From the NCBI GenBank assembly GCA_030426125.1, contig JAUHZB010000001.1, positions 94,583 through 158,582 on the forward strand: a stretch of 64,000 bases of DNA, written 5' to 3'. The position numbers were made by a program, and so were the translations under genes. Below the pieces are notes generated by a model. The model worked only from the letters and a program-made list of their open reading frames with translations. It was not told where the DNA came from and searched no databases. The DNA is from a bacterium. Its GTDB lineage: Bacteria > Patescibacteriota > Saccharimonadia > Saccharimonadales > AWTP1-31. Positions 19,505 through 34,947 of the stretch are shown in pieces (position 1 is the stretch's first letter; each line of letters starts with the position of its first letter).

Positions 19505-20596
19505 ATGATACATTTTGTTATTGGTACAAGAGCACAGCTTTTTAAGATGGCGCCTATTATGCGTGAGTGCGACAAGCGTGGTCTAGATTGGCGTTGGGTT
19601 TACACCGTTCAACATAAGGAGACCATAGACAACACCCTAAAAGTTTTTGAGTTAAAAGATCCTGATTACACTCTTTTTGATTGGGACAGTGAAGCAAAAT
19701 CTATGTCCAAGATTTGGTATTGGTTAATTCGGGCTATGCTAGCCTTATTTAAAGGACGAAAGATCTTAGATAAAAAGACTGGTAAGAAAAATATTGTATT
19801 AACTCATGGAGACACGCTAACAACTTGGTGGGGTGCCTTGCTTGGTAGGCTCTATGGTTGCAAGGTCATGCACGTTGAGTCGGGCTTAAGAAGCTTTAAT
19901 ATTTTCAAACCTTTCCCTGAGGAGATTGATAGATTAATTACTTTTCGTTTAGCAAACATTTATGCTTGTCCGGGTGATTGGGCGGTCAATAATTTAAAGA
20001 AGTATAAGGGTGAAAAGATAAATACAGAGGAGAATACCCAGATAGATGTGCTACGCTTTGGATTAGAACACTGCGATAAAGCGACTATAAAAATACCAAA
20101 AGTTAAGTATGTTGTTGCTAGTATTCATAGATACGAGAATATATTTAATCAGGATAGATTTGAAGAGGTTATTGATCGAACATTAGATATATCTAATAAG
20201 TTTAAAGTCTTCTGGGTACAGCATCCTGCAACTAAGCTACAACTTGAGAAGAACCCTAAAATATTAAAGAAACTGAAGGATAATAAGCAAATTAGTTTAC
20301 TGCCCAGGCTTGAGTATCTAGAGTTTATTAAACTAGTAAAGCACTCGGAGTTTGTTATTACAGACGGTGGCGGTAATCAAGAAGAGCTATATCACCTAGG
20401 TAAGCCAACCTTAATATTCCGGAATGAATCTGAAAGGCTAGAGGGATTAAATGATACAGCGATTATATCTAAACTAGATCCCGAAATAATTAGTGAATTT
20501 ATTGCAAACTATAAGAAATATGCAAAACCAGCTTTTAGAAAGAAGGCAGAACCCTCCAAGATGATAGCCGATAGACTAGTAGAATTTAGCAACTAG
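19505..20596 (+). CDS. UDP-N-acetylglucosamine 2-epimerase family protein (WecB-like, divergent)
   Basis: N-terminal VIGTRAQLFKMAPIM, plus HGDTLTT…HVESGLRSFNIFKPFPEEIDR matching the HVEAGLR…PEExNR core of Epimerase_2. Confidence 0.7.
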   Translation: MIHFVIGTRAQLFKMAPIMRECDKRGLDWRWVYTVQHKETIDNTLKVFELKDPDYTLFDWDSEAKSMSKIWYWLIRAMLALFKGRKILDKKTGKKNIVLTHGDTLTTWWGALLGRLYGCKVMHVESGLRSFNIFKPFPEEIDRLITFRLANIYACPGDWAVNNLKKYKGEKINTEENTQIDVLRFGLEHCDKATIKIPKVKYVVASIHRYENIFNQDRFEEVIDRTLDISNKFKVFWVQHPATKLQLEKNPKILKKLKDNKQISLLPRLEYLEFIKLVKHSEFVITDGGGNQEELYHLGKPTLIFRNESERLEGLNDTAIISKLDPEIISEFIANYKKYAKPAFRKKAEPSKMIADRLVEFSN

Positions 20597-21879
20597 TTGC
20601 TAATACTCAGGTAGGTTATATTATTCTTTTCGAACTCTTCGCGTTTATCATCAAAACTACTTTTTCCATCGAAGAAAATACTACTAGGCTTTAGTTGTGC
20701 AGGGTTGATGTCTAGAAATTGTTTGTGATTGGTAGCGAGAATAACGATATCTCTGTTTTTTAATGCACTTTCTAGGTCTTTTTCACTAGATTTATCTATA
20801 AATGGGTCGTAGGTCGCAACATCAGCCCCTAGAGACTCTAACTGCTCAATAATGGAATAAGAAGGACTCATGCGATCGTCTGCAACGTTGGGCTTATATG
20901 ATAAGCCCAATACCGCAATGGATTTTCCTTCTAGTGAGCCGGAATCGCCTTTTTCAGTTAATGAATCAATAATATTATCTACTACAAATTTTGGCATTCC
21001 TTCGTTTATTGATCTGGCAAGTTTAAGAAATTCATGGTTGAATCCCTTACCTTTAGCGTATTCAATTAAATAGTAGGGGTCGACTGGTATACAGTGACCA
21101 CCAACCCCAATTCCGGGGTAGTGGGCTAAGAAAGCAAATGGTTTAGTAGCCGCACCATCGATAACATTATTGATGTTTATACCTAGTTTATTGAAGGACA
21201 TCGCTAACTCATTTACGAATGCTATATTTATATCCCTAAATGAATTCTCGACGATTTTAACAGCCTCAGCTTCCTTAAGACTACCCATTTTCATAACTTC
21301 AGCATCAACCAGATTTGAATAGAATTGGTGAGCCAGCTTTAGTCCTTCGTCAGTACTTGCACCAACAACACGATTAATATTGCTTACATTCCATTTAGGA
21401 TCGCCAGGGTTTATTCTTTCTGGGCAATGAGCCAGGTATATTGATTTTCCTACCTGGTGATCAGTTTCATTTTCAATGAGCGGAATAATAACTTCATCGC
21501 AAACACCAGGATTAATGGTTGACTCAATCACTAGCAAGCTACCATCTTTCATTAAAGGTGTAGTTGACTTAACAGCATTGATGACTGGCTGAAGATCAGG
21601 AGTTTTATTCTCATCTACAGGTGTGGGAACGCAAATGACAACCGCATCAGCGTCTTTAACTTGATCAAATTTATTAGTGAATAATATATTGCTGTCATTT
21701 AATTGCTCGGTTATTAGTGGTTCGTCAATTGAAGTGTTTTTATTGTTCAGGTTTTCTATTTTATTTGTGTCGAGGTCAATCCCAGTAACTGAAAAACCTT
21801 TTTTCTCAGCCAATAATGATAAGGGTAAACCTACATATCCCAGCCCAATTACTGCGATTCTTTTTATACTATTCATCAA
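20593..21879 (-). CDS. Nucleotide-sugar 6-dehydrogenase (UDP-ManNAc/UDP-GlcNAc dehydrogenase class, WecC/Cap5O-like)
   Basis: Rossmann motif IAVIGLGYVGLP and catalytic Cys region GIGVGGHCIPVDPYY. It converges on the epimerase gene with a 4-nt overlap. Confidence 0.85.
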   Translation of the reverse strand: MMNSIKRIAVIGLGYVGLPLSLLAEKKGFSVTGIDLDTNKIENLNNKNTSIDEPLITEQLNDSNILFTNKFDQVKDADAVVICVPTPVDENKTPDLQPVINAVKSTTPLMKDGSLLVIESTINPGVCDEVIIPLIENETDHQVGKSIYLAHCPERINPGDPKWNVSNINRVVGASTDEGLKLAHQFYSNLVDAEVMKMGSLKEAEAVKIVENSFRDINIAFVNELAMSFNKLGININNVIDGAATKPFAFLAHYPGIGVGGHCIPVDPYYLIEYAKGKGFNHEFLKLARSINEGMPKFVVDNIIDSLTEKGDSGSLEGKSIAVLGLSYKPNVADDRMSPSYSIIEQLESLGADVATYDPFIDKSSEKDLESALKNRDIVILATNHKQFLDINPAQLKPSSIFFDGKSSFDDKREEFEKNNITYLSISN

Positions 21880-21926
21880 ATTTAGTATAAACTAAATACA
21901 GATAATGAGCTAAAAAAAGAGGTTAA

Positions 21927-22895
21927 ATGAAGTTAGTAATATTTACAATCTGTAAAGATGAATCTAGTACATTGAAAGAATTACTAGACCGCATGCCGAG
22001 CAAAATTGCTGGTGTTTCAAAAATTGAAACCTTAGTCATAAGTGATGGTAGTACTGATAATACGGCGCAAGTTGCTAGAGATAATGGAGCAACAAAAGTT
22101 ATTGAGGGCGTAACACAGAAACGTCTAGCTTACCGTTTCCAGCAAGCAATAGATACTGTCTTGGAAATGGGTGCTGATTTAGCGGTAAATATTGACGGCG
22201 ATCTACAGTTTGCGCCGGAAGATATTCCTAAACTACTAGAGCCTGTAGTTACTAAAGATTATGACTTCGTAGCCGCTGACAGATTTACTGATCCTAAAAC
22301 GAATATGCGACGTAGGCCGGATAACATGCCCAAGACGAAATATTGGGCTAATAGGTTAGGGGCTAAGATTGTAGGTAGCTTATCCGGCCAAAACTTTCGA
22401 GACGTTACCTGTGGGTTTAGAGCATACAACAAGAAAGCGATGCTGGCTATCAATATAAACAGCAACTATACCTACACCCAAGAGTCATTTCAGGTATTGG
22501 CTATCAAGAAGATGAATATCACATCAGTTCCAATTTTAGTTAAATATTATCCTGGTCGAAAATCGCGGGTGGTGCGTAGTTTTTGGCAGTTCTTGTTTGG
22601 AAGCGCTCTGAATATTTTGCGGGCTTACCGTGATTATGCACCCTTAAAATTTTTTGGTATAGCTAGCGCGCTGTGTCTAATGCCAGGTGTGATTATTGGT
22701 GGCTTTGTGGCTTGGCACTGGGCTACAACCGGTGCAATTAGCCCTTATATCGCTTTTGGGATTATTGCTTTGTTCTTAGTTAGCGTAGGCATCTTGCTTG
22801 GTATATTAGGCCTAGTCGCTGATATGTTTGATAGGATGTTAAATAACCAAGAAAAGATTATTGAACAAAACAAACGACAGAGATACGATAGTTAA
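21927..22895 (+). CDS. GT2 polyprenyl-phosphate glycosyltransferase (GtrB/DPM1/CsbB-like) with two C-terminal TM helices
   Basis: ISDGSTDNT, NIDGDLQF and AADRF motifs, followed by two C-terminal TM helices (FFGIASALCLMPGVIIGGFVAW and IAFGIIALFLVSVGILLGILGLV). Confidence 0.8.
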   Translation: MKLVIFTICKDESSTLKELLDRMPSKIAGVSKIETLVISDGSTDNTAQVARDNGATKVIEGVTQKRLAYRFQQAIDTVLEMGADLAVNIDGDLQFAPEDIPKLLEPVVTKDYDFVAADRFTDPKTNMRRRPDNMPKTKYWANRLGAKIVGSLSGQNFRDVTCGFRAYNKKAMLAININSNYTYTQESFQVLAIKKMNITSVPILVKYYPGRKSRVVRSFWQFLFGSALNILRAYRDYAPLKFFGIASALCLMPGVIIGGFVAWHWATTGAISPYIAFGIIALFLVSVGILLGILGLVADMFDRMLNNQEKIIEQNKRQRYDS

Positions 22896-23809
22896 TTAAA
22901 TTCCGACCAGGGGGATCGTTTTTTTGTGAGCTTAGTTAGTAGCTTAACGTCAGGTTTATAATGTTTTACTATTTGTTTGTATAATTTCGTGGTACTGTCT
23001 AATTTTGTGTTGTCTGGTTTTGCATTCCAACTATTAATATTAACCTCTATAATTTTTCGGAGCTTATAGGGTAGTATTGTGCGGTAGGTTTGTCGGAGAA
23101 GTGGTATTTTATAAGTATATTTTTGAGTAAGCAGTGGTATTTTTGGTTTCATGCCTCCTGGGTTAGCCTTTTGATCGTATTTCAAGTTCACATCTGCACT
23201 GGCCCCAATGAATTTTAGTAGCTCTTTAACCACCTTTTCTGGGTTCTTAACTAGATCTTCAAAAAACAGAACTTTGATGTTTCTTGCATCAAAATTTTGG
23301 TAGTAGGGTTTAAGTAGCTTGCCATATTCACTGCCAAATAATGGTAGGGTTTTATAGTCCCAATTATTGTTTCTTAATTTCTCAACATTTTTGCTAGATA
23401 TTAAATTAGTCATATGCTCATCGAATGATTCGGTTATGCCATATCTTCTAACGCCGGATTTGTAGTGAGAGAATGCTCTTTTTATAGGGTGGCGCATTAT
23501 TACAATTAGTTTAACTTTAGGATTATGTTTCTTGATCTGTTTGGCGGTGTTGTTAATAGAATGACCACCGCGGTAGTACATATATTGTGGTGTTACAGTA
23601 CCCCAGAGATTTTGCTCTTCTGATTGGTTAAAGTGTTGAGATAAGTACCAGTCTGAACCTTTTTCCAGCAGTTTGTCGTCATTAAAAAAGGGAACTTCCT
23701 TAGCTTTAGGTAGAGATATATTGGGATGATCCTTTAATATCTCATGAAGTGATGTTGTGCCTGACTTGGCAGCTCCTATTACAATAAAATCTAACTTATT
23801 TTTAGCCAT
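22892..23809 (-). CDS. PAPS-dependent sulfotransferase (cytoplasmic)
   Basis: 5'-PSB loop FIVIGAAKSGTTSL and 3'-PB motif VIMRHPIKRAFSHY. No TM segment or signal peptide. Its start overlaps the end of the upstream flippase gene by 19 nt. Confidence 0.85.
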   Translation of the reverse strand: MAKNKLDFIVIGAAKSGTTSLHEILKDHPNISLPKAKEVPFFNDDKLLEKGSDWYLSQHFNQSEEQNLWGTVTPQYMYYRGGHSINNTAKQIKKHNPKVKLIVIMRHPIKRAFSHYKSGVRRYGITESFDEHMTNLISSKNVEKLRNNNWDYKTLPLFGSEYGKLLKPYYQNFDARNIKVLFFEDLVKNPEKVVKELLKFIGASADVNLKYDQKANPGGMKPKIPLLTQKYTYKIPLLRQTYRTILPYKLRKIIEVNINSWNAKPDNTKLDSTTKLYKQIVKHYKPDVKLLTKLTKKRSPWSEFN

Positions 23810-25134
23810 TTTGCTGTTGCCTTAAATGGTAGTGACCATATTCCTAAATTTTTCTTAACTAAGTATAACAAAGCAATGTTTTTAACGGCAATCGTTGTTG
23901 TGACAGCAATGCCTGCTCCAAGCACACCTAGTATTGGAACCAGGGTAAAGGTTAGGATGGCATTTAATAACAGAACAGTAAGGCCAATCGTTACTGCTAA
24001 GGATTTTTCATAGCCAGTCATAGCTAATAGATAACTCACTGAACCAACGCCAAGGTTTACAACTTGAGCAATAACTAAAATCCTAAGTACTGAAGCTCCA
24101 TCTGTGAAGTCCGACCCAAATAAGCCAAGCACTAGATCAGGGAAGATCAGCATGAATAGGATAAGAGGGGTTGCTAGAAGAAGCGCAAGAGCTGCGGTTT
24201 TGCTGGCCATTGTCTCTAGCTTCTTTCGGTACTTAATATCCTGAAGCTCAGCTATTTTAGTGGTTGCTATAGCATTAATACCAGTTAGAATTACAGATAG
24301 AAGCATTGAGACTTTGAGGGCAATATTAAACACACCAACTGCTTCAGCGTCTAGAACAATTCCCAGCACCGCAATATTAAGCTGTCCTGTCATCTGATTA
24401 GAAAATTCTACAAATAACAATGGTGCTGCAATTAATAGCAAAGTTTTTTTGTTGAAAAGTTTTGGGGTACTGTTTCTTGGGATATATTTTCTTAGTAAGA
24501 AATACCCAAATAAAGAACTTAATAATACACCAATAGTAAAACCTATTACTGCACCGCTTAGGCCAAACCTAGAGCCTAAAACTAATATTGAAAAAGCCCC
24601 AAGTATGTATACGATGACTCTTTCAAGGAATACTGATTCTCGAATCTTTTTTAGGCCTCTTAAGAATCCAGCCTGAACGAAAATAGTAGACATGGCTGGA
24701 ATTGCTATAGCGAACCATCGTAAGTACTGTTGAAGCTGGGGTTGTTTGAATACTTTATCAGCTATTAATGGAGCACTTACAAAGACTAGTATCCCGAGAG
24801 ATGTTGAGATAATAGTAGTAAGCTTGAAAGCTGTTTTTTCTAATCCATGTAGACTTGCGTGGTCTTTGTCTTTAACAAGCTTAGGTATGTACTTAACAAC
24901 TGCTCGGTTAAAACCAAGTCTGCCCACCAGGGCTAGAACAGCAAGAACTGAGAAGGCAAGATAGAATAGTCCTGCTCCTTCAGCTCCGAAATTCCTGGCT
25001 AGTAGCAAGTCAAAAATGAATTGAGCACCGGCTGCTAGGCCAAACATTATTAGTGCCCAGGCAGAGTGTTTTAGGATTTCACCGAAATCTTTATCACCGG
25101 TTTTTAGTTGTTTTGGTAGGTATTTCATCATCAT
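23791..25134 (-). CDS. MOP-superfamily polysaccharide flippase (Wzx-like)
   Basis: 447 aa with about 12-14 TM segments, the typical polysaccharide-biosynthesis-protein layout. Confidence 0.8.
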   Translation of the reverse strand: MMMKYLPKQLKTGDKDFGEILKHSAWALIMFGLAAGAQFIFDLLLARNFGAEGAGLFYLAFSVLAVLALVGRLGFNRAVVKYIPKLVKDKDHASLHGLEKTAFKLTTIISTSLGILVFVSAPLIADKVFKQPQLQQYLRWFAIAIPAMSTIFVQAGFLRGLKKIRESVFLERVIVYILGAFSILVLGSRFGLSGAVIGFTIGVLLSSLFGYFLLRKYIPRNSTPKLFNKKTLLLIAAPLLFVEFSNQMTGQLNIAVLGIVLDAEAVGVFNIALKVSMLLSVILTGINAIATTKIAELQDIKYRKKLETMASKTAALALLLATPLILFMLIFPDLVLGLFGSDFTDGASVLRILVIAQVVNLGVGSVSYLLAMTGYEKSLAVTIGLTVLLLNAILTFTLVPILGVLGAGIAVTTTIAVKNIALLYLVKKNLGIWSLPFKATAKWLKIS

Positions 25135-25139
25135 TATTA

Positions 25140-25844
25140 TTAATTGTTGTCACTGAATGTATCATCAAGCGACAGATGGTCTTCTATGAATGCCTCAGCA
25201 GCGTATAGGTCGGGTTTAAATGTTATTTTAAATAACCATGGGCTTCCTTCAACATGGCGCACTTTATGACCTAGAAGCCTAATGGTTTCTGGTATGTGTA
25301 TGTATTTATCGCCAAATTTATGTAAGGCCTCTTGAAGTGTGTCAGTATGGAATCCTTGTGGTGTTTGAATCTCACGGTACTTATCTCTATCAGGGGTTGA
25401 TTGTAGATAGCCATCATCGTCCACCACCAGTGAGTTTTTTATAGAAAGGACCGGATAGGCACATTTGTAATCATGTAATTCGTCGATAATATCAGAGGTT
25501 ATTTCTTTATTTAAAAATGGCCTACTTGCATCGTGTAGTAAAACAAATTTAGTATCAATATTATCAATTACATTTACCAGTGACTTTGACCTTGAGTTAC
25601 TTGCTTTAACTAACTGAATATTAGGAAACTTTTCCTTTAAGAACGTAGCATCTTCAATTTCTGTAACAATAACTATGATATTGCTGAAAAGCGGGTAGGT
25701 GGTTTCCAGTGAATATTCAATTACTTTCTTACCTCTTATATCTAGATACTGTTTAGGGGTATTCATGCCAGTGCGTTTACCACGACCACCAGCTAGCAGT
25801 ATTAGTGTTGCATTATCGAAATTTGAGGTATTTTGTTTATTCAT
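25140..25844 (-). CDS. IspD/TarI-family cytidylyltransferase (CDP-polyol/CDP-sugar-phosphate synthase)
   Basis: N-terminal LILLAGGRGKRTGMNTPKQYL signature. There is a 4-nt overlap with the upstream TagF-like gene. Confidence 0.8.
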   Translation of the reverse strand: MNKQNTSNFDNATLILLAGGRGKRTGMNTPKQYLDIRGKKVIEYSLETTYPLFSNIIVIVTEIEDATFLKEKFPNIQLVKASNSRSKSLVNVIDNIDTKFVLLHDASRPFLNKEITSDIIDELHDYKCAYPVLSIKNSLVVDDDGYLQSTPDRDKYREIQTPQGFHTDTLQEALHKFGDKYIHIPETIRLLGHKVRHVEGSPWLFKITFKPDLYAAEAFIEDHLSLDDTFSDNN

Positions 25845-27040
25845 CTAATAATTTCTTTTATTGTCTCAAAGTATCTTGCTGAGCTCTTACCATCTAGTGT
25901 ATCACCCCAGACTTTTTTTCGAACCCGATCCATTTCTTTGTTGTATTTTTTTAAGTACTTAGCTGGGTTGGATAGAGATTCGGATAACTGTTTATTGAAA
26001 GCAGTAAAATCTTCGGTTTTAGCACCAGCTCTATCGGCTGGCGTCAGGGTGTAGCCATAAAAAGTTGGCTTAGTATCGATGAATATCACTGGCTTATTAG
26101 TTTTCATTGCAATAAAATCGGTATAGATGGATGACCAGTCGGTGATAAGTACATCTACTAAATGAAGTAGTGGTTTGATGTCCATATCCCCTTTGCTAGA
26201 TACTATTCTTAATCCTGGAAGATTTTCTGGTAATTTGAAGGTGCTGTTTAAATGGGGTAGTAATAGTATTAAGCTATTTTGCTTGAGGGCAATATTATTT
26301 AGTTCCTCTAAGAACTTCTCACCAGGCATATCGAACGAAGAAAACAGCTCTTGATTCTTGCTGTTCCAGGTCGGGGCGTACAGAACAATCTTTTTCTTTT
26401 TGTTAATGTCTTTAAGTCCGAATGTTTCACGAATATTTTGTAGCTCCTTCTGGTTTGGGGCTTTTGTGAGTGAGTCTACCTGTGAATATCCAGTAACGAA
26501 TAATTGCTTTTCGCTGTAACCCCAGCCTTTATGGAATTTTTTAAATTCTGGCGAGGAGACAAACACTGCATCATAAAATAATCGTGGAATAGTTTCTTCT
26601 TTGGTGCGGTTTTTGAATCCGGCTCCATGCCAAAATTCAACAAATAATGGGCGTCTTTTACTGTTTTTCCATGGACCCAAGAAAGCTGGACCATGGGATG
26701 TGCAAATTACTTGTGATGTTGCTAGTCTCTTTAAGTGATTTAAATTTTGCAATGAGTATGTGGACATGGTGTTATCAGTATTCTTGAGTCGTTTATAGTG
26801 AGCAGGGTCATCAGTGAAAAAATCTACTTGGTATTCATTTTGGTTAGCAATTAACCACTCGCCAAAAGACTTTAAGTTGCCGTTGAGTCGATGACCAACT
26901 AAAGAAATACGTTTTTGTTTTTTAAGGTGTAGAGTTAGGAATGCTAGTTTAGCGATGTGGGCAAATACAACTCCAGCTATATATTTTTTTATAACAACAG
27001 GTAATGGGTGTTTCTTTTTTCCAATACGAATACTAATCAT
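25841..27040 (-). CDS. CDP-glycerol/ribitol glycerophosphotransferase family protein (TagF/TagB/TarL-like)
   Basis: VLYAPTWN and LITDWSSIYTDFIAMKTNKPVIFI match the Glyphos_transf catalytic region. Confidence 0.8.
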   Translation of the reverse strand: MISIRIGKKKHPLPVVIKKYIAGVVFAHIAKLAFLTLHLKKQKRISLVGHRLNGNLKSFGEWLIANQNEYQVDFFTDDPAHYKRLKNTDNTMSTYSLQNLNHLKRLATSQVICTSHGPAFLGPWKNSKRRPLFVEFWHGAGFKNRTKEETIPRLFYDAVFVSSPEFKKFHKGWGYSEKQLFVTGYSQVDSLTKAPNQKELQNIRETFGLKDINKKKKIVLYAPTWNSKNQELFSSFDMPGEKFLEELNNIALKQNSLILLLPHLNSTFKLPENLPGLRIVSSKGDMDIKPLLHLVDVLITDWSSIYTDFIAMKTNKPVIFIDTKPTFYGYTLTPADRAGAKTEDFTAFNKQLSESLSNPAKYLKKYNKEMDRVRKKVWGDTLDGKSSARYFETIKEIIR

Positions 27041-27203
27041 TTCTCTAATAAAATACTACAATTGTCCGAGTAAGTATAATTTTATTAGTTCGGTGATTTT
27101 ACAACACCGACAACTGTTGCGCACAATAGCTCAAGGAAGTAACATATACAGTGCACGGTTAGAATAAACCAAAACATTATTGCTTGTCTAGAGAGGGTTA
27201 CTA

Positions 27204-28928
27204 ATGACAAAGAGGCAGAAGAAAACAGCGGGTGAACTAGTCGATTTAATAGTCGATCACAAAGAGTCAGAAAAGATAAAGAAACAAGCTAGAAACTACA
27301 AGAGTTGGGATCTATCGCCAAGGCAGATATGTGATGTCGAAATGATAATTAACGGCGCCTTTTCTCCGCTGACAGGTTTCCTGAATAAAAAAGACTATCT
27401 TTCTGTCTGCAAAGATATGCGTTTGGCTAATGGATCATTATGGCCAATGCCAATTACCCTAGATGTAGATAAAGAGTTTGGCTCTCCCCTTAAAAAGGGT
27501 GAAAAGATAGCACTCAGAGACCAGGAAGGCGTAATCTTAGCAATTCTTGAAGTTGGAGACGTTTGGAAACCAGACAAAAGCAAAGAAGCAGAGCAAGTAT
27601 TTGGCTTGGATGATCAAGCACACCCGGCAGTAAATTATCTTCATAATATTGCCGGCGAGTATTACGTAGGCGGAAAGTTAACTGGACTTGAATTACCATC
27701 CTATTACGATTTTAAAGAACTCAGGCTTACCCCAGCAGAACTAAGGGCTCGTTTTGATAAACTTGGTTGGACAAAGGTAGTTGCTTTCCAGACCAGGAAT
27801 CCGATGCACCGAGCTCATGTGGAGTTAACTTTAAGGGCTGCAAAGAAAACTGAAGCAAACTTATTGATTCACCCCGTAGTAGGAATGACAAAGCCTGGCG
27901 ACATTGATCATTATACTAGAGTTAGAATCTACAAGAAGCTTAAGGACAGATATCCATCATCAACTGCTATGATTTCACTCCTACCATTAGCTATGAGAAT
28001 GGGTGGACCTAGAGAAGCCGTCTGGCACGCCATTATTCGTAAAAACTACGGAGTAACGCACTTTATTGTTGGCCGTGACCATGCTGGTCCTGGTAAAAAC
28101 TCTAAAGGTGAAGATTTCTATGGACCGTATGATGCTCAGGATTTAATAGAAAAATACAAGGATGAAATTGGAGTGGAAATTGTTCCATTCCAGATGATGG
28201 TATATGTACCAAGTAAAGATGACTATATGGCCATTGATGAGGTTCCAAAAAGCGAAGAATTTGCCAGTATCTCAGGAACAGAGCAACGTGAACGTTTGTC
28301 TAAAGGTAAGGAATTACCAGAATGGTTTACTTACCCAGAAGTAGAGCAAGAACTTCGCAGAACTACTAAGCCTTTGCACCAAAGAGGTTTTACTATATTA
28401 TTCACCGGTTTATCTGGTTCCGGAAAGTCAACAATTGCTAATGCACTTAGAATAAAGTTGCTAGAGCAGGGAGATAAAACGGTTTCATTGCTGGATGGAG
28501 ATATTGTTAGGAAAAACTTATCCTCCGAGCTAGGATTTAGCAAAGAACATAGAGATCTAAACGTTCTTAGGATTGGCTACGTTGCATCAGAAATTGCGAA
28601 ACATGGTGGAGTGGCTATTTGTGCGCCAATTGCTCCATACGACAAAACCCGTAAACAAGTAAAAGATATGGTTGAACAAGCCGGCGGTAAGTTTGTGCTT
28701 GTTCATGTCGCCACACCTCTTGAAGTCTGTGAAAAAAGAGATCGAAAAGGCCTTTACGCAGCTGCCAGAGCTGGAAAAATTAAAGAGTTTACCGGGATCT
28801 CAGATCCATATGAAGCGCCAGACGATGCTGACTTGGTATTAAATACGGTAGACACCACACCAGAAGCATTAGCCCAAGAAGTCTTGTTGCATCTAGAAAA
28901 AGAAGGCTTATTAAGCGATGATGCGTAG
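27204..28928 (+). CDS. sat/cysC: Bifunctional sulfate adenylyltransferase / adenylylsulfate kinase (PAPS synthase, Sat-CysC fusion)
   Basis: ATP-sulfurylase motifs [11 protein letters not shown] and VGRDHAGPG. The C-terminal APS-kinase P-loop is [13 protein letters not shown], with LDGDIVR. Confidence 0.92.
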
Positions 28929-28970
28929 TTCATCAACTGTAATTGTTGGCTACAGCTATAGGTTTAATTA

Positions 28971-29777
28971 ATGAAGGATGCTGATTTAATTAAATTACTT
29001 CCAGTTATTGAACAAATTGCTGTGAATGCTGGTGAACGTATATTAGATATATATAATTCTGATGATTTTGAAGTACAGATTAAAGCAGATAGCTATAACT
29101 CCCCACTCACTAAAGCAGACAAGATTTCTAACGATGAAATAACAGCAGAATTAGGGGAAGTATCAGATTACCAGGTTGTTTCCGAAGAAAATAACGTTGA
29201 AGCAGATAAAACCAAACCTTTTTGGTTAATAGACCCGCTTGATGGAACAAAAGAATTCGTCAAACGAAACGGAGAATTCACTGTGAATATTGCATTAATC
29301 GTTGACGCCAAACCAGTACTCGGCGTTGTTTATGCGCCTGTTCTAAGCACTACTTATAGTGGTGCCAGTGATAAGGCGTATAAAATTGTCGAAGGTAAAA
29401 AAAATGCCATCAGATCAGTAGCGAACGATAAGATTCCAACAATAGTAACAAGCAGATCGCATAAGGATGAAATAACTCAGAAACTTCTGGATAGGATAGG
29501 GGAATATAATGAAATATGCATGGGGTCTTCTTTGAAACTTTGTTTAGTAGCTGAAGGAAAGGCTATGCTATATCCAAGACTAGCCCCGACGTATCCTTGG
29601 GATACAGCGGCTGCAGATGCTGTAGTCAGGTCCGCTGGAGGTAGAGTGACCAACACAGAAGGCAATGACCTAGACTATGGTGTTGATAGGAACATCAAGA
29701 ACCCGTTTTTTATTGTAGCTAGCAAAAACGCTATTAACTGGCAGGAGTTATTGAGCTCAATCCTACCGAAAAGCTAG
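28971..29777 (+). CDS. cysQ: 3'(2'),5'-bisphosphate nucleotidase (PAP phosphatase)
   Basis: Inositol-monophosphatase-fold motifs SEE, WLIDPLDGTKEF and WDTAA. It lies directly downstream of the PAPS synthase. Confidence 0.85.
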   Translation: MKDADLIKLLPVIEQIAVNAGERILDIYNSDDFEVQIKADSYNSPLTKADKISNDEITAELGEVSDYQVVSEENNVEADKTKPFWLIDPLDGTKEFVKRNGEFTVNIALIVDAKPVLGVVYAPVLSTTYSGASDKAYKIVEGKKNAIRSVANDKIPTIVTSRSHKDEITQKLLDRIGEYNEICMGSSLKLCLVAEGKAMLYPRLAPTYPWDTAAADAVVRSAGGRVTNTEGNDLDYGVDRNIKNPFFIVASKNAINWQELLSSILPKS

Positions 29778-29784
29778 TTTTTAT

Positions 29785-30642
29785 TTAACTTATATTAGTT
29801 AGGTACTTACCATAGCCGCTTTTCACAAGTGGCTCAGCTAATGCCTGTAATTGATCTTTACTAATGAAGCCCTCACGGTAAGCGACTTCCTCCGGGCATC
29901 CAATCTTAAGTCCGGTTCTTTTCTCGATAACTCGGATGTACTCAGAAGCATCACTCATTGAACTAAATGTTCCAGTATCTAGCCATGCAGTTCCTCGGTC
30001 AAGTAAAGAAACCTTTAGCTTACCTTTTTGCAAGTAGGCATCAAGGACTGAGGTGATTTCTACTTCTCCACGTTCACTAGGCTGAACATTTTTTGCAATT
30101 TCAACAACCTCATTATCGCAAAAATAAAGGCCAGCATTAGCAAAATTAGACTTTGGATTTTTGGGTTTCTCTTCAATCGATAGAACGTTCATATTTCGAT
30201 CAAATTCATAAACACCATAGCGCTCCGGATCAACTACCTGAGCGGCAAATCCTATGGCGCCATCAACATTTGTGTATCTTTTTAGCTGTGCGTCCATATT
30301 TGTTCCATGAAATAGATTGTCACCTAAAATCATTGCAACCTTGTCTTTACCAATGAAATCTTCACCAATGATGAAAGCTTGGGCAAGTCCTTCTGGTTTG
30401 GGCTGTACGGCATACTGTAAGTTGATGCCCCAGTCTGAACCATCACCAAGTAGTCGTTTGAATTGATCCTGATCATGGGGAGTAGTAATAATTAATATGT
30501 CTTTAATCCCAGCTAACATAAGGGTGCTAAGTGGGTAATAGATCATCGGCTTATCGTAAATTGGGATTAACTGCTTAGATACGCCTTTGGTTATTGGATA
30601 TAATCTAGTGCCTGATCCACCGGCTAGTATGATGCCTTTCAT
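29785..30642 (-). CDS. rfbA: Glucose-1-phosphate thymidylyltransferase
   Basis: [18 protein letters not shown] and the 285-aa RmlA layout. Confidence 0.93.
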
Positions 30643-31490
30643 TGCCTCTCCTTTTTAATGTATTTTACTAGATCTTCCTTCCAGTCGTTAGGCCGGAAGC
30701 CAGTCTGCTTAATCTTGCTTAAATTTAGACTACTAAATTTAGGGCGAGGTGCTATACCTTCTTTATCTTTGTAGTAATCTTCAGTAGAAATATCGGTAAC
30801 CTTGTTGCCTAAATCGGCGGATTTGTATATTTCCCTAGTCACATCAGCCCAGCTAACCGCCTGACCATCATTGGTTACATTATATGTTCCAAACTCAAGT
30901 TGGTTTGTTAGTAAATGGTCGATTGCCCGAACTAATTCGTCTGTAAAGGTAAGTCTACCAATTTGGTCATTGACTACACTTGGATCGATACCTTTTTCAG
31001 CTACGCTAAGCATGGTACGAACAAAGTTTTTACCCTCACCGATAACCCAACTAGTGCGTAGGATATAGTGGCTCGGGAGCGATTGGACTAGTAGATCACC
31101 AGCTGCTTTACTTGCCCCATATACACTGAGTGGTGAAAATTCTTCGTCTTCAGTGTGATTATCTTGACTGCCGTCAAAAACATAATCCGATGAGATATGG
31201 ACTAGAGTGATGTTTTTTTCTCGGCAAACTTGGCTAAGATTTCCAATAGCCGTGGCGTTTACTTTCCAGGCTGAGACACGACCTTCATTAGTTTCAGCTC
31301 CATCTACATTGGTATAAGCAGCTGCATTAATAATGGTTTTGATGTTTGACCAGTCGTAATCCTTTACTGATTTTGGGTCAGTAATATCCAACTCTGCTAT
31401 ATCGGCAAACTTAGCGTCAGGATACTTTGCTCGGAGTGCGGTACCTAGCTGACCGTTGGCACCTGTAATAAAAATCTGTTTACTGTTCAC
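30639..31490 (-). CDS. rfbD: dTDP-4-dehydrorhamnose reductase
   Basis: ITGANGQLG Rossmann motif, SSDYVFDG and YGASK (YxxxK). It lies inside the rfb operon with 4-nt overlaps. Confidence 0.9.
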
Positions 31491-32050
31491 TACTTTAGAA
31501 CCTCTTTTAGCGGTGGGTTATTTCGATCTTTGTCGGAGATTATCATGCCGGAACCTTCTTTGATCGGCCAATCTATATTCAGATCTGGGTCTAGTGGGTT
31601 GCAGGCTACACCAGGCATGTCTGGTTTCCATTCTTTCTCAAAGTAATAGAGATAGGTAGAGGGTTCATCACTAATTGACTGGAAAGAATTACCCAGGCCA
31701 CTGGAAACGAATAAGCCTTGGCCACGATTGAGTTCAAAACCTTGCCATTTACCAGCGGTTGGTGATTCTTTTCGAAGATCAACTATAACGGCGTAGATTT
31801 TACCACTTGCTACAGAGACCAGCTTATGGGCGAATTCAGCATGGATACCTCTCAATGCACCTTTTACGGTGCTAGGAGCATTGACTTGGGGTCGGTCTCC
31901 AAGCGAGGGTAGTCCACTGGCAAGGAAGTCTGACTCTCTATAAAACTCCATTACTGAACCACGGTCATCAAAGAATTGTTTAAAAGTAACAGTGTATAGT
32001 CCTTTTATTGATGTTTCATTTACTAGGAGCTTGCTTTGATTATCTGTCAT
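31490..32050 (-). CDS. rfbC: dTDP-4-dehydrorhamnose 3,5-epimerase
   Basis: FFDDRGSVMEFYR, LRGIHAE and cupin-fold size (186 aa). Confidence 0.9.
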   Translation of the reverse strand: MTDNQSKLLVNETSIKGLYTVTFKQFFDDRGSVMEFYRESDFLASGLPSLGDRPQVNAPSTVKGALRGIHAEFAHKLVSVASGKIYAVIVDLRKESPTAGKWQGFELNRGQGLFVSSGLGNSFQSISDEPSTYLYYFEKEWKPDMPGVACNPLDPDLNIDWPIKEGSGMIISDKDRNNPPLKEVLK

Positions 32051-32558: not shown

Positions 32559-32573
32559 AACACTGGCCTGTAT

Positions 32574-34947
<2,374 letters not shown>

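What the first reader, a model, noticed from the sequence alone, without database searches (positions are those of the whole stretch)
22892..29777. Dedicated PAPS supply line wired to a TagF/TarI/Wzx/sulfotransferase operon predicts a sulfated teichoic-acid-like wall polymer
Seen in the sequence: a 574-aa Sat-CysC fusion carries [18 protein letters not shown] and GLSGSGKST. It is followed by CysQ (WLIDPLDGTKEF). These two genes are transcribed divergently, across a 163-bp gap, from a four-gene minus-strand operon with overlapping gene ends. The operon encodes a TagF-like glycerophosphotransferase, a TarI/IspD-like cytidylyltransferase, a MOP flippase and a soluble sulfotransferase with both PAPS-binding motifs (GAAKSGTTS 5'-PSB, RHPIKRAFSHY 3'-PB). 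Established knowledge: Sat plus CysC makes PAPS, CysQ removes the inhibitory PAP by-product, and sulfotransferases of this fold use PAPS. Inference: the window has no cysH, cysI/J or cysK, so the module looks like a sulfuryl-donor factory for glycan modification rather than sulfur assimilation. Sulfation would occur on the cytoplasmic face, before Wzx flipping and LCP ligation. Sulfated envelope glycans are known in a few bacteria, such as mycobacterial sulfolipids and rhizobial LPS/Nod factors. To my knowledge none is described for wall polymers of a reduced-genome monoderm/CPR-type organism. A permanently anionic, phosphate-sparing surface could matter for an epibiotic lifestyle.
Basis: partly seen in the sequence, partly recalled or inferred. 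Interest (0 to 1): 0.8.

Follow-up and report, generated by a model that had tools for sequence, protein, structure and literature searches.

The report
Sulfated surface-glycan gene module in Saccharibacteria
A tiny-genome Saccharibacteria-type bacterium keeps a complete factory for the sulfate donor PAPS next to a sugar-type sulfotransferase and lipid-linked-glycan genes, so it most likely makes a sulfated (and here also polyol-phosphate-bearing) cell-surface glycan, which has been described in other bacteria and archaea but not in this group.

Summary
All six genes lie at the stated coordinates and pass profile searches. They are a Sat-CysC fusion, CysQ, a TagF-like transferase, an IspD-family cytidylyltransferase, a Wzx flippase and a soluble sulfotransferase (ST). 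The ST has intact PAPS-binding motifs and a heparan-sulfate-type fold.

The "dedicated PAPS supply" idea is strongly supported. ST, Sat-CysC and CysQ are syntenic across Saccharibacteria MAGs. All four Sat-CysC loci sampled in the reverse direction also carry a sulfotransferase nearby. Some relatives add an SLC13-type putative sulfate permease to the module.

The "teichoic-acid-like wall polymer" part is only partly supported. TagF plus a cytidylyltransferase is an accessory cassette, present in 8 of 17 loci, and it co-varies with Wzx. The conserved core is instead ST, a flippase (Wzx or MprF-like), an AglJ/GtrB-like GT2, a UDP-sugar dehydrogenase, GT4 and GT-C.

The final carrier is therefore unresolved. 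It could be a Wzx/Wzy/LCP wall polymer, or a short polyprenyl-phosphate-linked glycan moved by GT-C onto a protein or polymer.

Close analogues are already known: the Cobetia marina capsule (Rha2S with Man6PGro) and the Haloferax sulfated dolichol-phosphate glycan. I rate this a new member of a known kind, of moderate interest.

The parts
27204..28928 (+). Bifunctional ATP sulfurylase / APS kinase (Sat-CysC); makes PAPS from sulfate and ATP
   Evidence: NF004040 922 bits against a cutoff of 669. PUA_2, ATP-sulfurylase and APS_kinase domains are all present. The kinase P-loop GLSGSGKST is intact. 64-84% identical to Saccharibacteria proteins.
28971..29777 (+). CysQ 3'(2'),5'-bisphosphate nucleotidase; removes the PAP by-product
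   Evidence: TIGR01331 246 bits against a cutoff of 229; Inositol_P 9e-47. Lies 42 bp after Sat-CysC. Syntenic with Sat-CysC in 12 of 17 loci.
27041..27203 (.). 163-bp divergent intergenic region between the PAPS genes and the TagF-IspD-Wzx-ST operon
   Evidence: Length confirmed. It contains promoter-like hexamers on both strands, but the count is no higher than in shuffled sequence.
25841..27040 (-). TagF-like CDP-alditol:glycan alditol-phosphotransferase (short, single domain, with one N-terminal hydrophobic helix)
   Evidence: Glyphos_transf 5e-27. Only weak hits to TarF, TarB and TarL. Matches PDB 8qoy Cps3D at 4e-9. The WHGAGFK, YAPTW and ITDWSS motifs are present. Clusters with the other IspD-partnered TagF-likes.
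25140..25844 (-). IspD/TarI-family cytidylyltransferase; presumed CDP-alditol supplier for the TagF-like enzyme
   Evidence: Pfam IspD 1e-38. Below both NCBIfam cutoffs: TIGR00453 ispD 158 against 181, and NF001183 ribitol-5-P cytidylyltransferase 88 against 166. Similar PDB matches to IspD, human ISPD and TarI. Overlaps the TagF gene by 4 bp. An IspD-family gene is immediately adjacent to TagF in L002, L082 and L085 as well.
23791..25134 (-). Wzx/MOP-family flippase for a lipid-linked glycan
   Evidence: Polysacc_synt 3e-25 with about 9 or more TM segments. A Wzx gene lies immediately upstream of the ST on the same strand in 18 of 81 ST loci, from many phyla including archaea.
22892..23809 (-). 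Soluble PAPS-dependent carbohydrate-type sulfotransferase
   Evidence: Sulfotransfer_1 and Sulfotransfer_3 hits. K15, T18, T19, E38, R106 and S114 are invariant. Profile hits to 3rnl (4e-42), NDST1 and 3-OSTs. AF2 model pLDDT 89.6; Foldseek TM 0.72-0.78 to HS sulfotransferases. No TM segment.
21927..22895 (+). GT2 polyprenyl-phosphate glycosyltransferase-like enzyme (AglJ/GtrB/ArnC/PpgS-like) with two C-terminal TM helices; part of the conserved core
   Evidence: Glycos_transf_2 1e-13; best NCBIfam hit is AglJ at 98 bits, below its cutoff. Two TM segments. Present near the ST in 14 of 17 loci.
20593..21879 (-). UDP-sugar 6-dehydrogenase (UDP-ManNAc/GlcNAc dehydrogenase-like); supplies a uronic acid; part of the conserved core
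   Evidence: TIGR03026 403 bits. Present near the ST in 14 of 17 loci.
19505..20596 (+). UDP-GlcNAc 2-epimerase (WecB-like)
   Evidence: Epimerase_2 5e-47; TIGR00236 195 bits, just below its cutoff of 210. Also lies next to the ST in L084.
18037..19425 (+). Multi-pass membrane protein, paralogue of the GT-C-like enzyme at 35465-36973
   Evidence: 25% identical to the 35465-36973 protein and shares the invariant DE..H motif. Weak PMT hit at 0.0027.
29785..33575 (-). dTDP-L-rhamnose operon: rmlA, rmlD, rmlC, an embedded NUDIX gene, and rmlB
   Evidence: ORFs. Precomputed Pfam hits on the identical locus L001: NTP_transferase, RmlD_sub_bind, dTDP_sugar_isom, NUDIX and GDP_Man_Dehyd. NUDIX confirmed directly. 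rml genes flank the module in L003, L009, L087 and L089.
35465..36973 (+). GT-C-fold glycosyltransferase candidate (DUF2142-like); an extracytoplasmic transferase that would use a polyprenyl-phosphate-linked donor
   Evidence: AF2 model pLDDT 88.6, pTM 0.90. The top 20 Foldseek PDB hits are all GT-C enzymes, at TM 0.4-0.5. D49, E50 and H53 are invariant. Homologues lie 2-9 kb from the ST in 9 of 17 loci.
38853..40286 (-). Initiating polyprenyl-phosphate glycosylphosphotransferase (WbaP/EPS type); context for a Wzx/Wzy route
   Evidence: TIGR03025 319.6 bits against a cutoff of 295.6; Bac_transf 2e-55.
6971..8257 (+). Wzy_C/O-antigen-ligase-family membrane protein (candidate polymerase); context
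   Evidence: PF04932 9e-16.
43244..43702 (-). GtrA-family small flippase; context for polyprenyl-P-sugar dependent glycosylation
   Evidence: GtrA_DPMS_TM 1e-18.
43874..45574 (+). LCP (LytR-CpsA-Psr) ligase candidate for attaching a glycopolymer to peptidoglycan; context
   Evidence: LytR_cpsA_psr 5e-40 and LytR_C.

Best explanation
The six genes belong to a surface-glycan sulfation module that is conserved in part of the Saccharibacteria.

Proposed steps:
1. Sat-CysC converts sulfate and ATP to PAPS.
2. The soluble, heparan-sulfate-type sulfotransferase transfers the sulfuryl group to a sugar hydroxyl of a polyprenyl-(pyro)phosphate-linked glycan precursor on the cytoplasmic face of the membrane.
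3. CysQ hydrolyses the inhibitory by-product PAP.
4. In this genome the same precursor also receives an alditol phosphate. The donor is a CDP-alditol made by the IspD-family cytidylyltransferase, and the TagF-like enzyme transfers it. The alditol itself is unknown; ribitol-type is a guess.
5. The co-transcribed Wzx flips the doubly anionic unit outward.
6. The unit is then built into the envelope by one of two routes that remain unresolved: Wzy polymerisation followed by LCP ligation to peptidoglycan, or GT-C-mediated transfer onto a polymer or protein.

Shown here: gene identities, intact catalytic and cofactor motifs, the ST fold, and conserved synteny.
Inferred: the acceptor, the order of steps and the final destination.
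For: - Enzyme identities exceed curated cutoffs for Sat-CysC and CysQ.
- The ST has invariant PAPS-binding residues and a Glu aligned with the catalytic Glu of NDST1 and 3-OST. Its confident model matches PAP/PAPS-bound HS sulfotransferases at TM 0.72-0.78, against about 0.4 for cytosolic SULTs.
- The ST has no TM segment.
- Synteny over 17 loci: Sat-CysC 12, CysQ 12, GT2 14, UDP-sugar DH 14, and a flippase in all 17.
- An SLC13/Na-sulfate-symporter-type permease sits inside the module in L006, L010 and L086.
- The window contains no assimilatory genes. A published survey found PAPS synthase but no sulfur-reduction genes in groundwater CPR (PMC12114108).
- Evidence that TagF, the cytidylyltransferase, Wzx and the ST act on one substrate: the four genes form a tight operon here and recur as a cassette, in a different order, in L082 and in an Actinomycetota MAG, L002. 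All 7 Wzx-type loci carry TagF plus a cytidylyltransferase, against 1 of 10 MprF-like-flippase loci.
- TagF subfamilies track the partner type, IspD or TagD.
- The ST subclade containing the window is entirely TagF-associated.
- Precedents: the Cobetia marina capsule with Rha2S and Man6PGro, whose cluster holds cysNC/cysD/cysQ, a permease and an ST (PMC11766843); and Haloferax DolP-linked hexose, which is sulfated before Wzx-like flipping (PMC3892788).
Against: - There is no biochemical evidence, and the acceptor is unknown.
- TagF plus a cytidylyltransferase is absent from 9 of 17 loci, so alditol phosphate is not intrinsic to the sulfated glycan.
- No sulfate transporter is recognisable in the window.
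- Absence of cysH/sir/cysK was checked only in 64 kb, not in the whole genome.
- In L082, L084, L085 and L002 no Sat-CysC lies within 10 kb of the ST, so the linkage is frequent but not obligatory.
- The co-occurrence statistics are not corrected for shared ancestry.
- The cytidylyltransferase's substrate cannot be assigned, and no TarJ-type reductase is nearby.
- The promoter and terminator scans gave nothing above chance, so the operon structure rests on gene spacing alone.
Confidence: 0.65

Rival explanations
1. The product is a teichoic-acid-like wall polymer. A WbaP-type transferase starts a repeat unit on undecaprenyl phosphate, and GTs add Rha and ManNAcA. The TagF-like enzyme inserts alditol phosphate and the ST sulfates the unit. 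Wzx then flips it, Wzy polymerises it, and LCP ligates the polymer to peptidoglycan.
For: All the required gene classes are present in the window: a PGT (TIGR03025 above its cutoff), Wzy_C, Wzx, LCP and rml genes. TagF, IspD, Wzx and the ST form a tight operon. Wzx and TagF co-vary across loci.
Against: WbaP, Wzy and LCP lie 15-20 kb away. Across loci WbaP occurs in only 5 of 17 and Wzy in 2 of 17 within 10 kb of the ST. The conserved neighbours are instead the GT2, a flippase, GT4 and GT-C. The TagF-like protein is 399 aa and single-domain, so nothing shows that it polymerises. No TagO/TagA/TagB/TagGH or TarJ was found in the window. Most Saccharibacteria loci with the PAPS module and an ST have no TagF at all.
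Confidence: 0.3
2. A short sulfated glycan is assembled on polyprenyl monophosphate. The AglJ/GtrB-like GT2 adds the first sugar, GT4 and a uronic acid from the UDP-sugar dehydrogenase extend it, and it carries sulfate with or without alditol phosphate. Wzx or an MprF-like protein flips it. A GT-C enzyme then transfers it outside the cell onto a surface protein or an existing polysaccharide. This would be a bacterial counterpart of the Haloferax/Halobacterium sulfated dolichol-phosphate glycans, or of Gram-positive three-component glycosylation.
For: The conserved core across loci is the ST, a flippase (17/17), GT2 (14/17), UDP-sugar DH (14/17) and GT-C-like (9/17), with GT4 commonly adjacent. 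The GT2 has two C-terminal TM helices and AglJ as its best hit. The 35465-36973 protein models as GT-C with an invariant DE..H motif. GtrA is present. Haloferax provides the precedent, with sulfation at the DolP-sugar stage and a Wzx-like flippase.
Against: All GT2 hits to characterised families are below their cutoffs. The GT-C structural matches are weak (TM 0.4-0.5, E 3e-3 or worse). Wzx flippases usually handle pyrophosphate-linked units. I know of no bacterial example of a sulfated polyprenyl-monophosphate sugar. The GT2/GT-C genes could serve a separate decoration system that merely shares the locus.
Confidence: 0.3
3. The Sat-CysC/CysQ genes serve ordinary sulfur assimilation through a PAPS reductase encoded elsewhere, and their adjacency to the sulfotransferase operon is incidental.
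For: Only 64 kb of the genome was examined. Sat, CysC and CysQ are the first steps of assimilation in many bacteria (established knowledge).
Against: Sat-CysC/CysQ are linked to a sulfotransferase in 12 of 17 loci and in 4 of 4 reciprocal samples. The window has no cysH/I/J/K. A survey of CPR genomes reports PAPS synthase without sulfur-reduction genes. Saccharibacteria generally lack amino-acid biosynthesis (my own knowledge, not tested here).
Confidence: 0.04
4. The sulfotransferase acts on a non-glycan acceptor, such as a small metabolite, a membrane lipid or a protein tyrosine. The neighbouring glycan genes are then unrelated to it.
For: Acceptor specificity cannot be read from sequence. 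The family's closest solved bacterial member, 3rnl, has no known substrate.
Against: The nearest characterised relatives by both profile and fold are polysaccharide sulfotransferases, while TPST and cytosolic SULTs match far worse. The ST is translationally coupled to Wzx through a 19-bp overlap. A flippase is adjacent in 17 of 17 loci, and a Wzx-ST pair occurs in 18 of 81 loci across phyla.
Confidence: 0.06

Closest known systems
Cobetia marina KMM 1449 sulfated capsular polysaccharide cluster (PMC11766843)
   Same: The surface glycan carries both a sulfate ester (Rha2S) and a glycerol phosphate (Man6PGro). The cluster combines dTDP-Rha synthesis, PAPS synthesis, cysQ, a sulfate permease and a sulfotransferase. 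This is functionally the nearest analogue to what is predicted here.
   Different: It is a Gram-negative group-III capsule exported by the KpsMT ABC transporter. It uses CysN/C and CysD rather than a Sat-CysC fusion, and the GroP is proposed to come from an LtaS-like WcbQ rather than a TagF-like enzyme with a CDP-alditol donor. No Wzx-ST pair is described.
Haloferax volcanii Agl5-Agl15 'low-salt' N-glycan pathway (PMC3892788)
   Same: The glycan (sulfated hexose, two hexoses, rhamnose) is assembled on a polyprenol phosphate. Sulfation happens at the lipid-linked stage on the cytosolic face, a Wzx-like flippase (Agl15) flips it, and dTDP-rhamnose genes lie in the cluster. Homologues of the window's ST, with Wzx adjacent, occur in Thermoplasmatota archaea.
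   Different: It is an archaeal dolichol carrier and the acceptor is an S-layer glycoprotein Asn. I did not compare the sequence of the sulfation enzyme Agl7 with this ST. There is no linked PAPS module and no alditol phosphate.
Classical wall teichoic acid pathway (TagO/TagA/TagB/TagD/TagF/TagGH; TarI/TarJ/TarL)
   Same: A Glyphos_transf (TagF-family) enzyme is paired with a cytidylyltransferase that would make a CDP-alditol donor. An LCP ligase is present in the window.
   Different: The flippase here is Wzx, not the TagGH ABC exporter. No TagO/TagA/TagB or TarJ is present in the window. The TagF-like protein scores far below the TarF, TarB and TarL equivalog cutoffs, and the cytidylyltransferase is below the TarI cutoff. 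As far as my literature searches show, sulfation is not a known teichoic acid modification.
Heparan sulfate sulfotransferases (NDST1 sulfotransferase domain; 3-OST-1/3/5)
   Same: The fold is the same, as are the 5'-PSB and 3'-PB PAPS-binding motifs. The invariant Glu38 in KEVPFF aligns with the catalytic Glu in EEIQFF and QEIHFF.
   Different: Identity is only 17-20%. The animal enzymes are Golgi enzymes acting on a finished polymer. The acceptor-binding regions are not conserved, so this enzyme works like one of them but is not a member of the animal families.
Predicted or known bacterial sulfated EPS clusters: Actinoplanes missouriensis wps-1 (PMC13390465) and Synechocystis synechan (cited there)
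   Same: The Actinoplanes wps-1 cluster, as read, is a Wzx/Wzy-type polysaccharide cluster that contains an HS-type sulfotransferase.
   Different: The passages I read mention no adjacent PAPS module and no TagF/cytidylyltransferase cassette. The organisms are free-living and have full sulfur assimilation (my own knowledge). The Actinoplanes product is itself unverified.
Rhizobial NodH/LpsS/KpsS and mycobacterial Stf0 glycolipid sulfotransferases (PMC11625862)
   Same: They are PAPS-dependent sulfation of envelope glycoconjugates in bacteria.
   Different: They belong to different ST subfamilies and act on other acceptors (Nod factor, LPS/KPS, trehalose). They are not coupled to a flippase and are not in reduced genomes.

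Membership tests
PAPS-dependent sulfotransferase (Sulfotransfer_1 / HS-sulfotransferase-like fold) | Profile match above the curated cutoff | tested here: met
   PF00685 64.8 bits (cutoff 22) and PF13469 60.4 bits (cutoff 27).
PAPS-dependent sulfotransferase (Sulfotransfer_1 / HS-sulfotransferase-like fold) | 5'-PSB loop (Lys and Thr) and 3'-PB motif (Arg and Ser) conserved | tested here: met
   K15, T18, T19, R106 and S114 are invariant in 21 orthologues and align with the corresponding loops of NDST1 and 3-OST5.
PAPS-dependent sulfotransferase (Sulfotransfer_1 / HS-sulfotransferase-like fold) | Three-dimensional fold matches PAP/PAPS-bound sulfotransferases | tested here: met
   AF2 model pLDDT 89.6. 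Foldseek prob 1.0 and TM 0.72-0.78 to 3-OST-1/3/5 and NDST1.
PAPS-dependent sulfotransferase (Sulfotransfer_1 / HS-sulfotransferase-like fold) | Catalytic base at the position of NDST1 Glu642 / 3-OST-1 Glu90 | tested here: met
   The invariant E38 (KEVPFF) aligns with EEIQFF of 1nst and QEIHFF of 3bd9. The residue numbers in the animal enzymes are from memory.
PAPS-dependent sulfotransferase (Sulfotransfer_1 / HS-sulfotransferase-like fold) | Sulfuryl transfer from PAPS to a glycan acceptor | not testable with these tools
   This needs an enzyme assay.
Bifunctional sulfate adenylyltransferase / adenylylsulfate kinase (NF004040) | Equivalog score above the cutoff, with both catalytic domains intact | tested here: met
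   922 bits against 669. The ATP-sulfurylase motifs [10 protein letters not shown] and GRDHAGPG and the kinase P-loop GLSGSGKST are all present.
CysQ 3'(2'),5'-bisphosphate nucleotidase (TIGR01331) | Equivalog score above the cutoff | tested here: met
   246.4 bits against 228.8. The metal-binding motif WLIDPLDGT is present.
TagF-family CDP-alditol phosphotransferase (Glyphos_transf) | Pfam domain above the gathering score, with conserved family motifs | tested here: met
   PF04464 95.3 bits against 22.1. WHGAGFK, YAPTW and ITDWSS are present. The assignment of the His to catalysis is from memory.
TagF-family CDP-alditol phosphotransferase (Glyphos_transf) | Polymerase as opposed to a single-addition (primase or decorating) enzyme | tested here: inconclusive
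   399 aa and single-domain. Scores for TarF (48.6), TarB (33.8) and TarL (24.2) are far below their cutoffs of 500-1000. The best PDB hit is the capsule polymerase Cps3D, at only 4e-9.
Classical wall teichoic acid system | TagO/TagA linkage-unit enzymes and a TagGH ABC exporter associated with TagF | tested here: not met
   No PF00953 or PF03808 protein was found among the ORFs of at least 120 aa. The operon's exporter is a Wzx. A Wzm/Wzt pair exists at 9290-11316, but it is 15 kb away and lies in another gene block.
TarI ribitol-5-phosphate cytidylyltransferase | Score above the NF001183 cutoff, with a TarJ reductase partner | tested here: not met
   88.4 bits against 166. It also falls below the ispD cutoff, 158 against 181. 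No TarJ-type dehydrogenase is in the window or next to the IspD-like genes of L002, L082 and L085. It belongs to the IspD family, but its substrate is unassigned.
Wzx/Wzy-dependent glycan assembly with LCP attachment | PGT, Wzx, Wzy and LCP genes present | tested here: met
   TIGR03025 319.6 bits against 295.6; Polysacc_synt; Wzy_C; LytR_cpsA_psr. Presence only: whether they work together was not tested. Wzy and WbaP are rarely near the ST in relatives.
Three-component polyprenyl-P-sugar glycosylation (GtrB-like GT2 + flippase + GT-C) | GT2 with C-terminal TM helices, a small or MOP flippase, and a GT-C fold enzyme | tested here: inconclusive
   The GT2 has two TM segments and AglJ/ArnC/PpgS-like hits, all below their cutoffs. 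GtrA is present. The GT-C fold is supported only at TM 0.4-0.5, although the top 20 hits are all GT-C.

The most novel reading that the evidence does not exclude
A sizeable part of the Saccharibacteria, and perhaps other CPR, keep PAPS synthesis only to build a sulfated, glycosaminoglycan-like glycan on polyprenyl monophosphate. A GT-C enzyme then transfers it onto surface proteins or polysaccharides. That would be a bacterial counterpart of the haloarchaeal sulfated dolichol-phosphate glycans. The decoration (sulfate with or without alditol phosphate) would dictate which flippase is used, Wzx or MprF-like, and the anionic coat would mediate attachment to, or protection from, the actinobacterial host. 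An Actinomycetota MAG carrying the same four-gene cassette hints at exchange between epibiont and host lineages.
Probability: 0.2. Interest if true: 0.75.

Novelty: new member of a known kind. Interest (0 to 1): 0.5.

Why it matters
Saccharibacteria are obligate epibionts with genomes of about 1 Mb or less, and they have discarded most biosynthesis. If they keep a three-enzyme PAPS pathway plus a sulfotransferase purely for envelope decoration, the sulfated glycan is probably important for their surface biology, for example host recognition, phage or immune evasion, or charge balance.

The module gives a concrete and testable prediction about CPR envelope chemistry, which is almost entirely unknown. 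It also offers a compact set of candidate genes for genetics in the cultivable strains. More widely, it adds to evidence that sulfated surface glycans in prokaryotes are more common than the few chemically characterised cases suggest.

Tried and rejected
- **Promoter/terminator scan of 21800-29900:** 21 promoter-like sites found against 22.4 expected, and 4 terminator-like against 5.8. This gives no information on operon boundaries.
- **Source organism:** exact look-ups returned only an unnamed NCBI contig of 289,771 bp and a Logan assembly. Taxonomy therefore rests on the nearest relatives.
- **Second sulfotransferase in the window:** hhalign of the ST profile against the unannotated ORF 11319-12767 gave nothing. 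Lenient Pfam and NCBIfam scans of the unannotated ORFs also found none.
- **Sulfate permease, MprF-like flippase or TagD in the window:** tblastn with the relatives' proteins found no hits.
- **GT-C assignment by sequence:** a profile search against the PDB found nothing meaningful, and Pfam gave only weak DUF2142 and PMT hits. It was redone with database homologues.
- **Substrate of the cytidylyltransferase:** PDB matches to IspD, human ISPD and TarI are all similar, so it cannot be assigned.
- **Recent horizontal transfer of the cassette:** rejected on composition. The window cassette is 37% GC against 39% for the window, and the L002 cassette is 65% against 67-68% for its flanks.
- **Literature:** searches on Saccharibacteria, Patescibacteria or CPR with sulfotransferase, sulfate adenylyltransferase or phosphoadenosine gave only incidental co-mentions. 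The one relevant remark was that CPR carry PAPS synthase without sulfur-reduction genes.

Full report
**1. Observation**

| Gene | Coordinates | Length |
|---|---|---|
| Sulfotransferase (ST) | 22892-23809 (-) | 305 aa |
| Wzx | 23791-25134 (-) | 447 aa |
| IspD-family cytidylyltransferase | 25140-25844 (-) | 234 aa |
| TagF-like | 25841-27040 (-) | 399 aa |
| Sat-CysC fusion | 27204-28928 (+) | 574 aa |
| CysQ | 28971-29777 (+) | 268 aa |

Profile searches confirm each assignment:
- Sulfotransfer_1 and Sulfotransfer_3 at 1e-17 and 4e-16.
- Polysacc_synt at 3e-25.
- IspD at 1e-38.
- Glyphos_transf at 5e-27.
- NF004040 bifunctional Sat/CysC at 922 bits, against a cutoff of 669.
- TIGR01331 CysQ at 246 bits, against a cutoff of 229.

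The divergent gap is 163 bp. The gene ends are tight. TagF and IspD overlap by 4 bp and Wzx and the ST by 19 bp, while IspD and Wzx are 5 bp apart rather than overlapping. The ST stop also overlaps the stop of a convergent GT2 gene.

Consensus promoter and terminator scans were no better than shuffled sequence. The operon structure therefore rests on spacing alone.

**2. Setting**

Pfam and NCBIfam scans of all ORFs of at least 120 aa show that the module sits in a large envelope-glycan region of about 40 kb. Going upstream from the ST, the neighbours are:
- an AglJ/GtrB/ArnC-like GT2 with two C-terminal TM helices (21927-22895);
- a UDP-sugar 6-dehydrogenase (20593-21879);
- WecB (19505-20596);
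- a multi-pass membrane protein (18037-19425).

Downstream of CysQ lie rmlA-rmlD-rmlC-NUDIX-rmlB, a phosphomannomutase, a second multi-pass membrane protein (35465-36973), a GT4 and a WbaP/EPS-type initiating transferase, which passes its cutoff. GtrA, an LCP protein and UppP follow.

Further upstream are a Wzy_C-family protein, a Wzm/Wzt pair and more glycosyltransferases.

No cysH, cysI/J, sir, cysK or recognisable sulfate transporter occurs in the 64 kb.

The window opens with rnpA-yidC-jag. GC content is even across it, at about 39%.

The nearest relatives of several genes are Candidatus Saccharibacteria MAGs. Sat-CysC is up to 84% identical to a named Saccharibacteria protein, and RmlA and RmlB are 70% and 74% identical.

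**3. The sulfotransferase**

About 33 orthologues at 39-55% identity exist. In an alignment of 21 of them, K15, T18 and T19 (5'-PSB), R106 and S114 (3'-PB) and E38 are invariant.

A profile of the family hits a bacterial sulfotransferase of unknown substrate (3rnl, 4e-42). It then hits the heparan-sulfate NDST1 sulfotransferase domain and 3-OST-1/3/5, at 1e-20 to 4e-23. In those alignments E38 of KEVPFF aligns with the Glu of EEIQFF and QEIHFF.

The AlphaFold model is confident, with pLDDT 89.6 and pTM 0.87. It superposes on PAP/PAPS-bound HS sulfotransferases at TM 0.72-0.78. Tyrosylprotein and cytosolic sulfotransferases reach only about 0.4.

The protein has no TM segment or signal-like N-terminus. 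It is therefore a cytoplasmic, PAPS-dependent, carbohydrate-type sulfotransferase. It works like the HS enzymes but is not a member of the animal families.

**4. Is the PAPS module dedicated?**

I tested this through synteny in both directions.

Starting from the ST, a genome-collection scan returned 80 loci. The eight closest after an actinobacterial one are Saccharibacteria-type. tblastn and ORF mapping show Sat-CysC and CysQ 1-8 kb from the ST.

Starting from Sat-CysC, more than 120 protein clusters are at least 66% identical, and many are named Saccharibacteria or Saccharimonadales. All four carry a Sulfotransfer_1/3 gene, CysQ and a flippase-like gene next to Sat-CysC.

In L006, L010 and L086 a 585-aa permease with CitMHS, TrkA_C and Na_sulph_symp domains sits inside the module. 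It is a plausible sulfate importer.

A summary over 17 loci is:

| Gene near the ST | Loci (of 17) |
|---|---|
| Sat-CysC | 12 |
| CysQ | 12 |
| GT2 | 14 |
| UDP-sugar DH | 14 |
| GT-C-like | 9 |
| WbaP | 5 |
| Wzy | 2 |

A published groundwater CPR survey adds that these genomes contain PAPS synthase but no sulfur-reduction genes (PMC12114108).

One caveat remains: the rest of this particular genome could not be scanned.

**5. What is sulfated?**

Three patterns bear on the acceptor.

First, every one of the 17 loci has exactly one flippase-type gene within 5 kb of the ST. It is either Wzx (7 loci) or a roughly 320-aa LPG_synthase_TM (MprF-flippase-like) protein (10 loci). Across all 81 ST loci, a Wzx lies immediately upstream on the same strand in 18, drawn from many phyla including archaea. 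The acceptor is therefore very probably a lipid-linked glycan that is flipped after modification.

Second, TagF plus a cytidylyltransferase is an accessory cassette, present in 8 of 17 loci. The partner is IspD-type in four (window, L002, L082, L085) and TagD-type in four (L004, L007, L010, L084).
- The TagF-like proteins cluster by partner. Identity is 34-55% among the IspD-partnered proteins and 32-73% among the TagD-partnered ones, but only 26-31% between the two groups. This is consistent with two CDP-alditol donor specificities.
- All 7 Wzx loci have the cassette, against 1 of 10 MprF-like loci. Uncorrected, the probability is about 4e-4.
- The ST subclade that contains the window is entirely TagF-associated (an NJ tree without bootstrap support).
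- The same four genes recur as one cassette, in a different order, in L082 and in L002, a 67%-GC Actinomycetota MAG.

They also show that alditol phosphate is an add-on and not the essence of the sulfated glycan.

Third, the conserved neighbours are the GT2, the UDP-sugar dehydrogenase, a GT4 and a multi-pass membrane protein. The window copy of that membrane protein (35465-36973) models confidently, with pLDDT 88.6. Its 20 best structural matches are all GT-C glycosyltransferases: EmbA/B, PglB, ArnT, AftA, ALG12/9/3, PimE, Pmt4 and STT3. TM scores are only 0.4-0.5. It also has an invariant N-terminal DE..H motif.

By contrast, WbaP, Wzy and LCP are seldom near the ST in relatives.

**6. Mechanism**

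- Shown: the enzymes needed to make PAPS, use it and recycle PAP are intact and genetically linked to a glycan-type ST and a flippase.
- Inferred: the ST O-sulfates a polyprenyl-(pyro)phosphate-linked glycan on the cytoplasmic face. Here that glycan also receives an alditol phosphate from the TagF-like enzyme, using a CDP-alditol made by the IspD-family enzyme. Wzx then flips it.

The alditol cannot be named. The cytidylyltransferase scores below both the IspD and the TarI cutoffs. It resembles IspD, human ISPD and TarI about equally. No TarJ-type reductase is adjacent in any of the four loci.

Two routes for the final step are about equally plausible:
- (b) a short glycan started on polyprenyl monophosphate by the AglJ/GtrB-like GT2 and delivered by GT-C to a protein or polysaccharide.

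The conserved synteny favours (b). The presence in the window of a PGT, Wzy, Wzx and LCP keeps (a) alive.

**7. Comparison with known systems**

The nearest chemical analogue is the Cobetia marina KMM 1449 capsule, ->4)-alpha-L-Rhap2S-(1->3)-beta-D-Manp6PGro-(1->. Its cluster combines rml genes, cysNC/cysD/cysQ, a sulfate permease and a sulfotransferase (PMC11766843).

The nearest mechanistic analogue is the Haloferax volcanii low-salt N-glycan. Its sulfated hexose, two hexoses and rhamnose are assembled on dolichol phosphate. Sulfation happens on the lipid-linked sugar, possibly as a requirement for translocation. The flippase Agl15 is Wzx-like, and Agl11-14 make dTDP-rhamnose (PMC3892788).

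Predicted sulfated EPS clusters with HS-type sulfotransferases have been reported for Actinoplanes (PMC13390465). A recent review counts only a handful of bacterial genera with sulfated polysaccharides (PMC11625862).

The locus is not a classical wall teichoic acid system. TagO/TagA/TagB/TagGH and TarJ are absent from the window, and the TagF-like and cytidylyltransferase proteins fall well below the equivalog cutoffs.

**8. Novelty and verdict**

I found nothing in the searchable literature that links Saccharibacteria or CPR to sulfotransferases or sulfated glycans. Earlier work only predicted glycerol teichoic acid capability for TM7 from metabolic models (PMC6609349).

The mechanism is not new in kind, so I rate this a new member of a known kind. 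Two points make it moderately interesting (0.5):
- An organism with a drastically reduced genome keeps PAPS synthesis apparently for surface decoration alone, and the module is widespread in its phylum.
- It gives a sharp, testable prediction about CPR envelope chemistry.

Its interpretation is partly supported: the dedicated PAPS-to-glycan link and cytoplasmic sulfation hold up, while the specific "teichoic-acid-like, LCP-ligated wall polymer" is only one of two live options.

Noticed in passing
window 47988-48147 (+) and 48198-49751 (+): A cobalamin riboswitch (RF00174, 31.9 bits, just above the gathering score of 31.5) lies directly upstream of a 517-aa ORF that has no Pfam or NCBIfam match. 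This is an unexplained B12-regulated gene in a Saccharibacteria-type genome.
   Followed up: partly
L002:8634-12805 (Actinomycetota MAG, 67% GC): The same four genes form one co-directional cassette, Wzx-ST-TagF-IspD, in a high-GC actinobacterial contig. Its ST nests among the Saccharibacteria-type, TagF-associated STs in an unbootstrapped NJ tree. Actinomycetota are the known hosts of Saccharibacteria, which hints at old exchange between host and epibiont lineages. Composition shows no recent transfer.
   Followed up: partly
L006:3616-5373, L010:4248-6005, L086:14270-16030: A 585-aa SLC13/DASS-type permease (CitMHS, two TrkA_C, Na_sulph_symp) is embedded between GT2 or UDP-DH and CysQ in relatives. 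It is a candidate sulfate importer for the module. The window has no homologue.
   Followed up: partly
L086:6206-7243, L087:8009-8914, L089:8048-8947: The sulfotransferases next to Sat-CysC in these Saccharibacteria/CPR loci are divergent from the window's ST family in the NJ tree. The phylum's PAPS module therefore appears to serve several sulfotransferase subfamilies.
   Followed up: partly
window 32040-32558 (-): A NUDIX hydrolase gene is embedded between rmlB and rmlC. A homologous NUDIX gene also sits beside the module in L006, and one sits next to rmlB in L087.
   Followed up: no
window 15979-17316 (-) and 17320-17964 (-): A DUF5648-domain protein is paired with a small membrane protein. 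The pair is syntenic with the ST block in L003, L006, L007, L008 and L010; L089 shows a DUF5648 gene beside a 185-aa ORF, but the latter's homology was not tested. It may be a surface protein functionally tied to the glycan.
   Followed up: no
window 53595-55133 (-), 57879-59423 (+), 59763-61556 (-), 498-2825 (+): Three paralogous proteins carry a 'choice-of-anchor Q' domain and one carries a 'choice-of-anchor U' domain. They have no other annotation and are predicted secreted or surface proteins.
   Followed up: no
window 35029-35454 (+): A 141-aa ORF with no family hit carries HFHIHMLIY near its C-terminus, which resembles a histidine-triad (HxHxHxx) nucleotide-binding motif. It lies between the phosphomannomutase and the GT-C gene.
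   Followed up: no
L086:12133-13353: Two toxin-antitoxin pairs (YafQ-type and ParE-type, each with an RHH partner) are inserted between Sat-CysC and CysQ in the closest named Saccharibacteria relative.
   Followed up: no
L009 (729-kb Saccharibacteria contig): WbaP, UDP-sugar DH, CysQ, PMM, RmlA and RmlB each appear split into two or three ORFs, and the ST ORF is fused to upstream sequence. This is either a decaying locus or indel errors in a long-read assembly.
   Followed up: no
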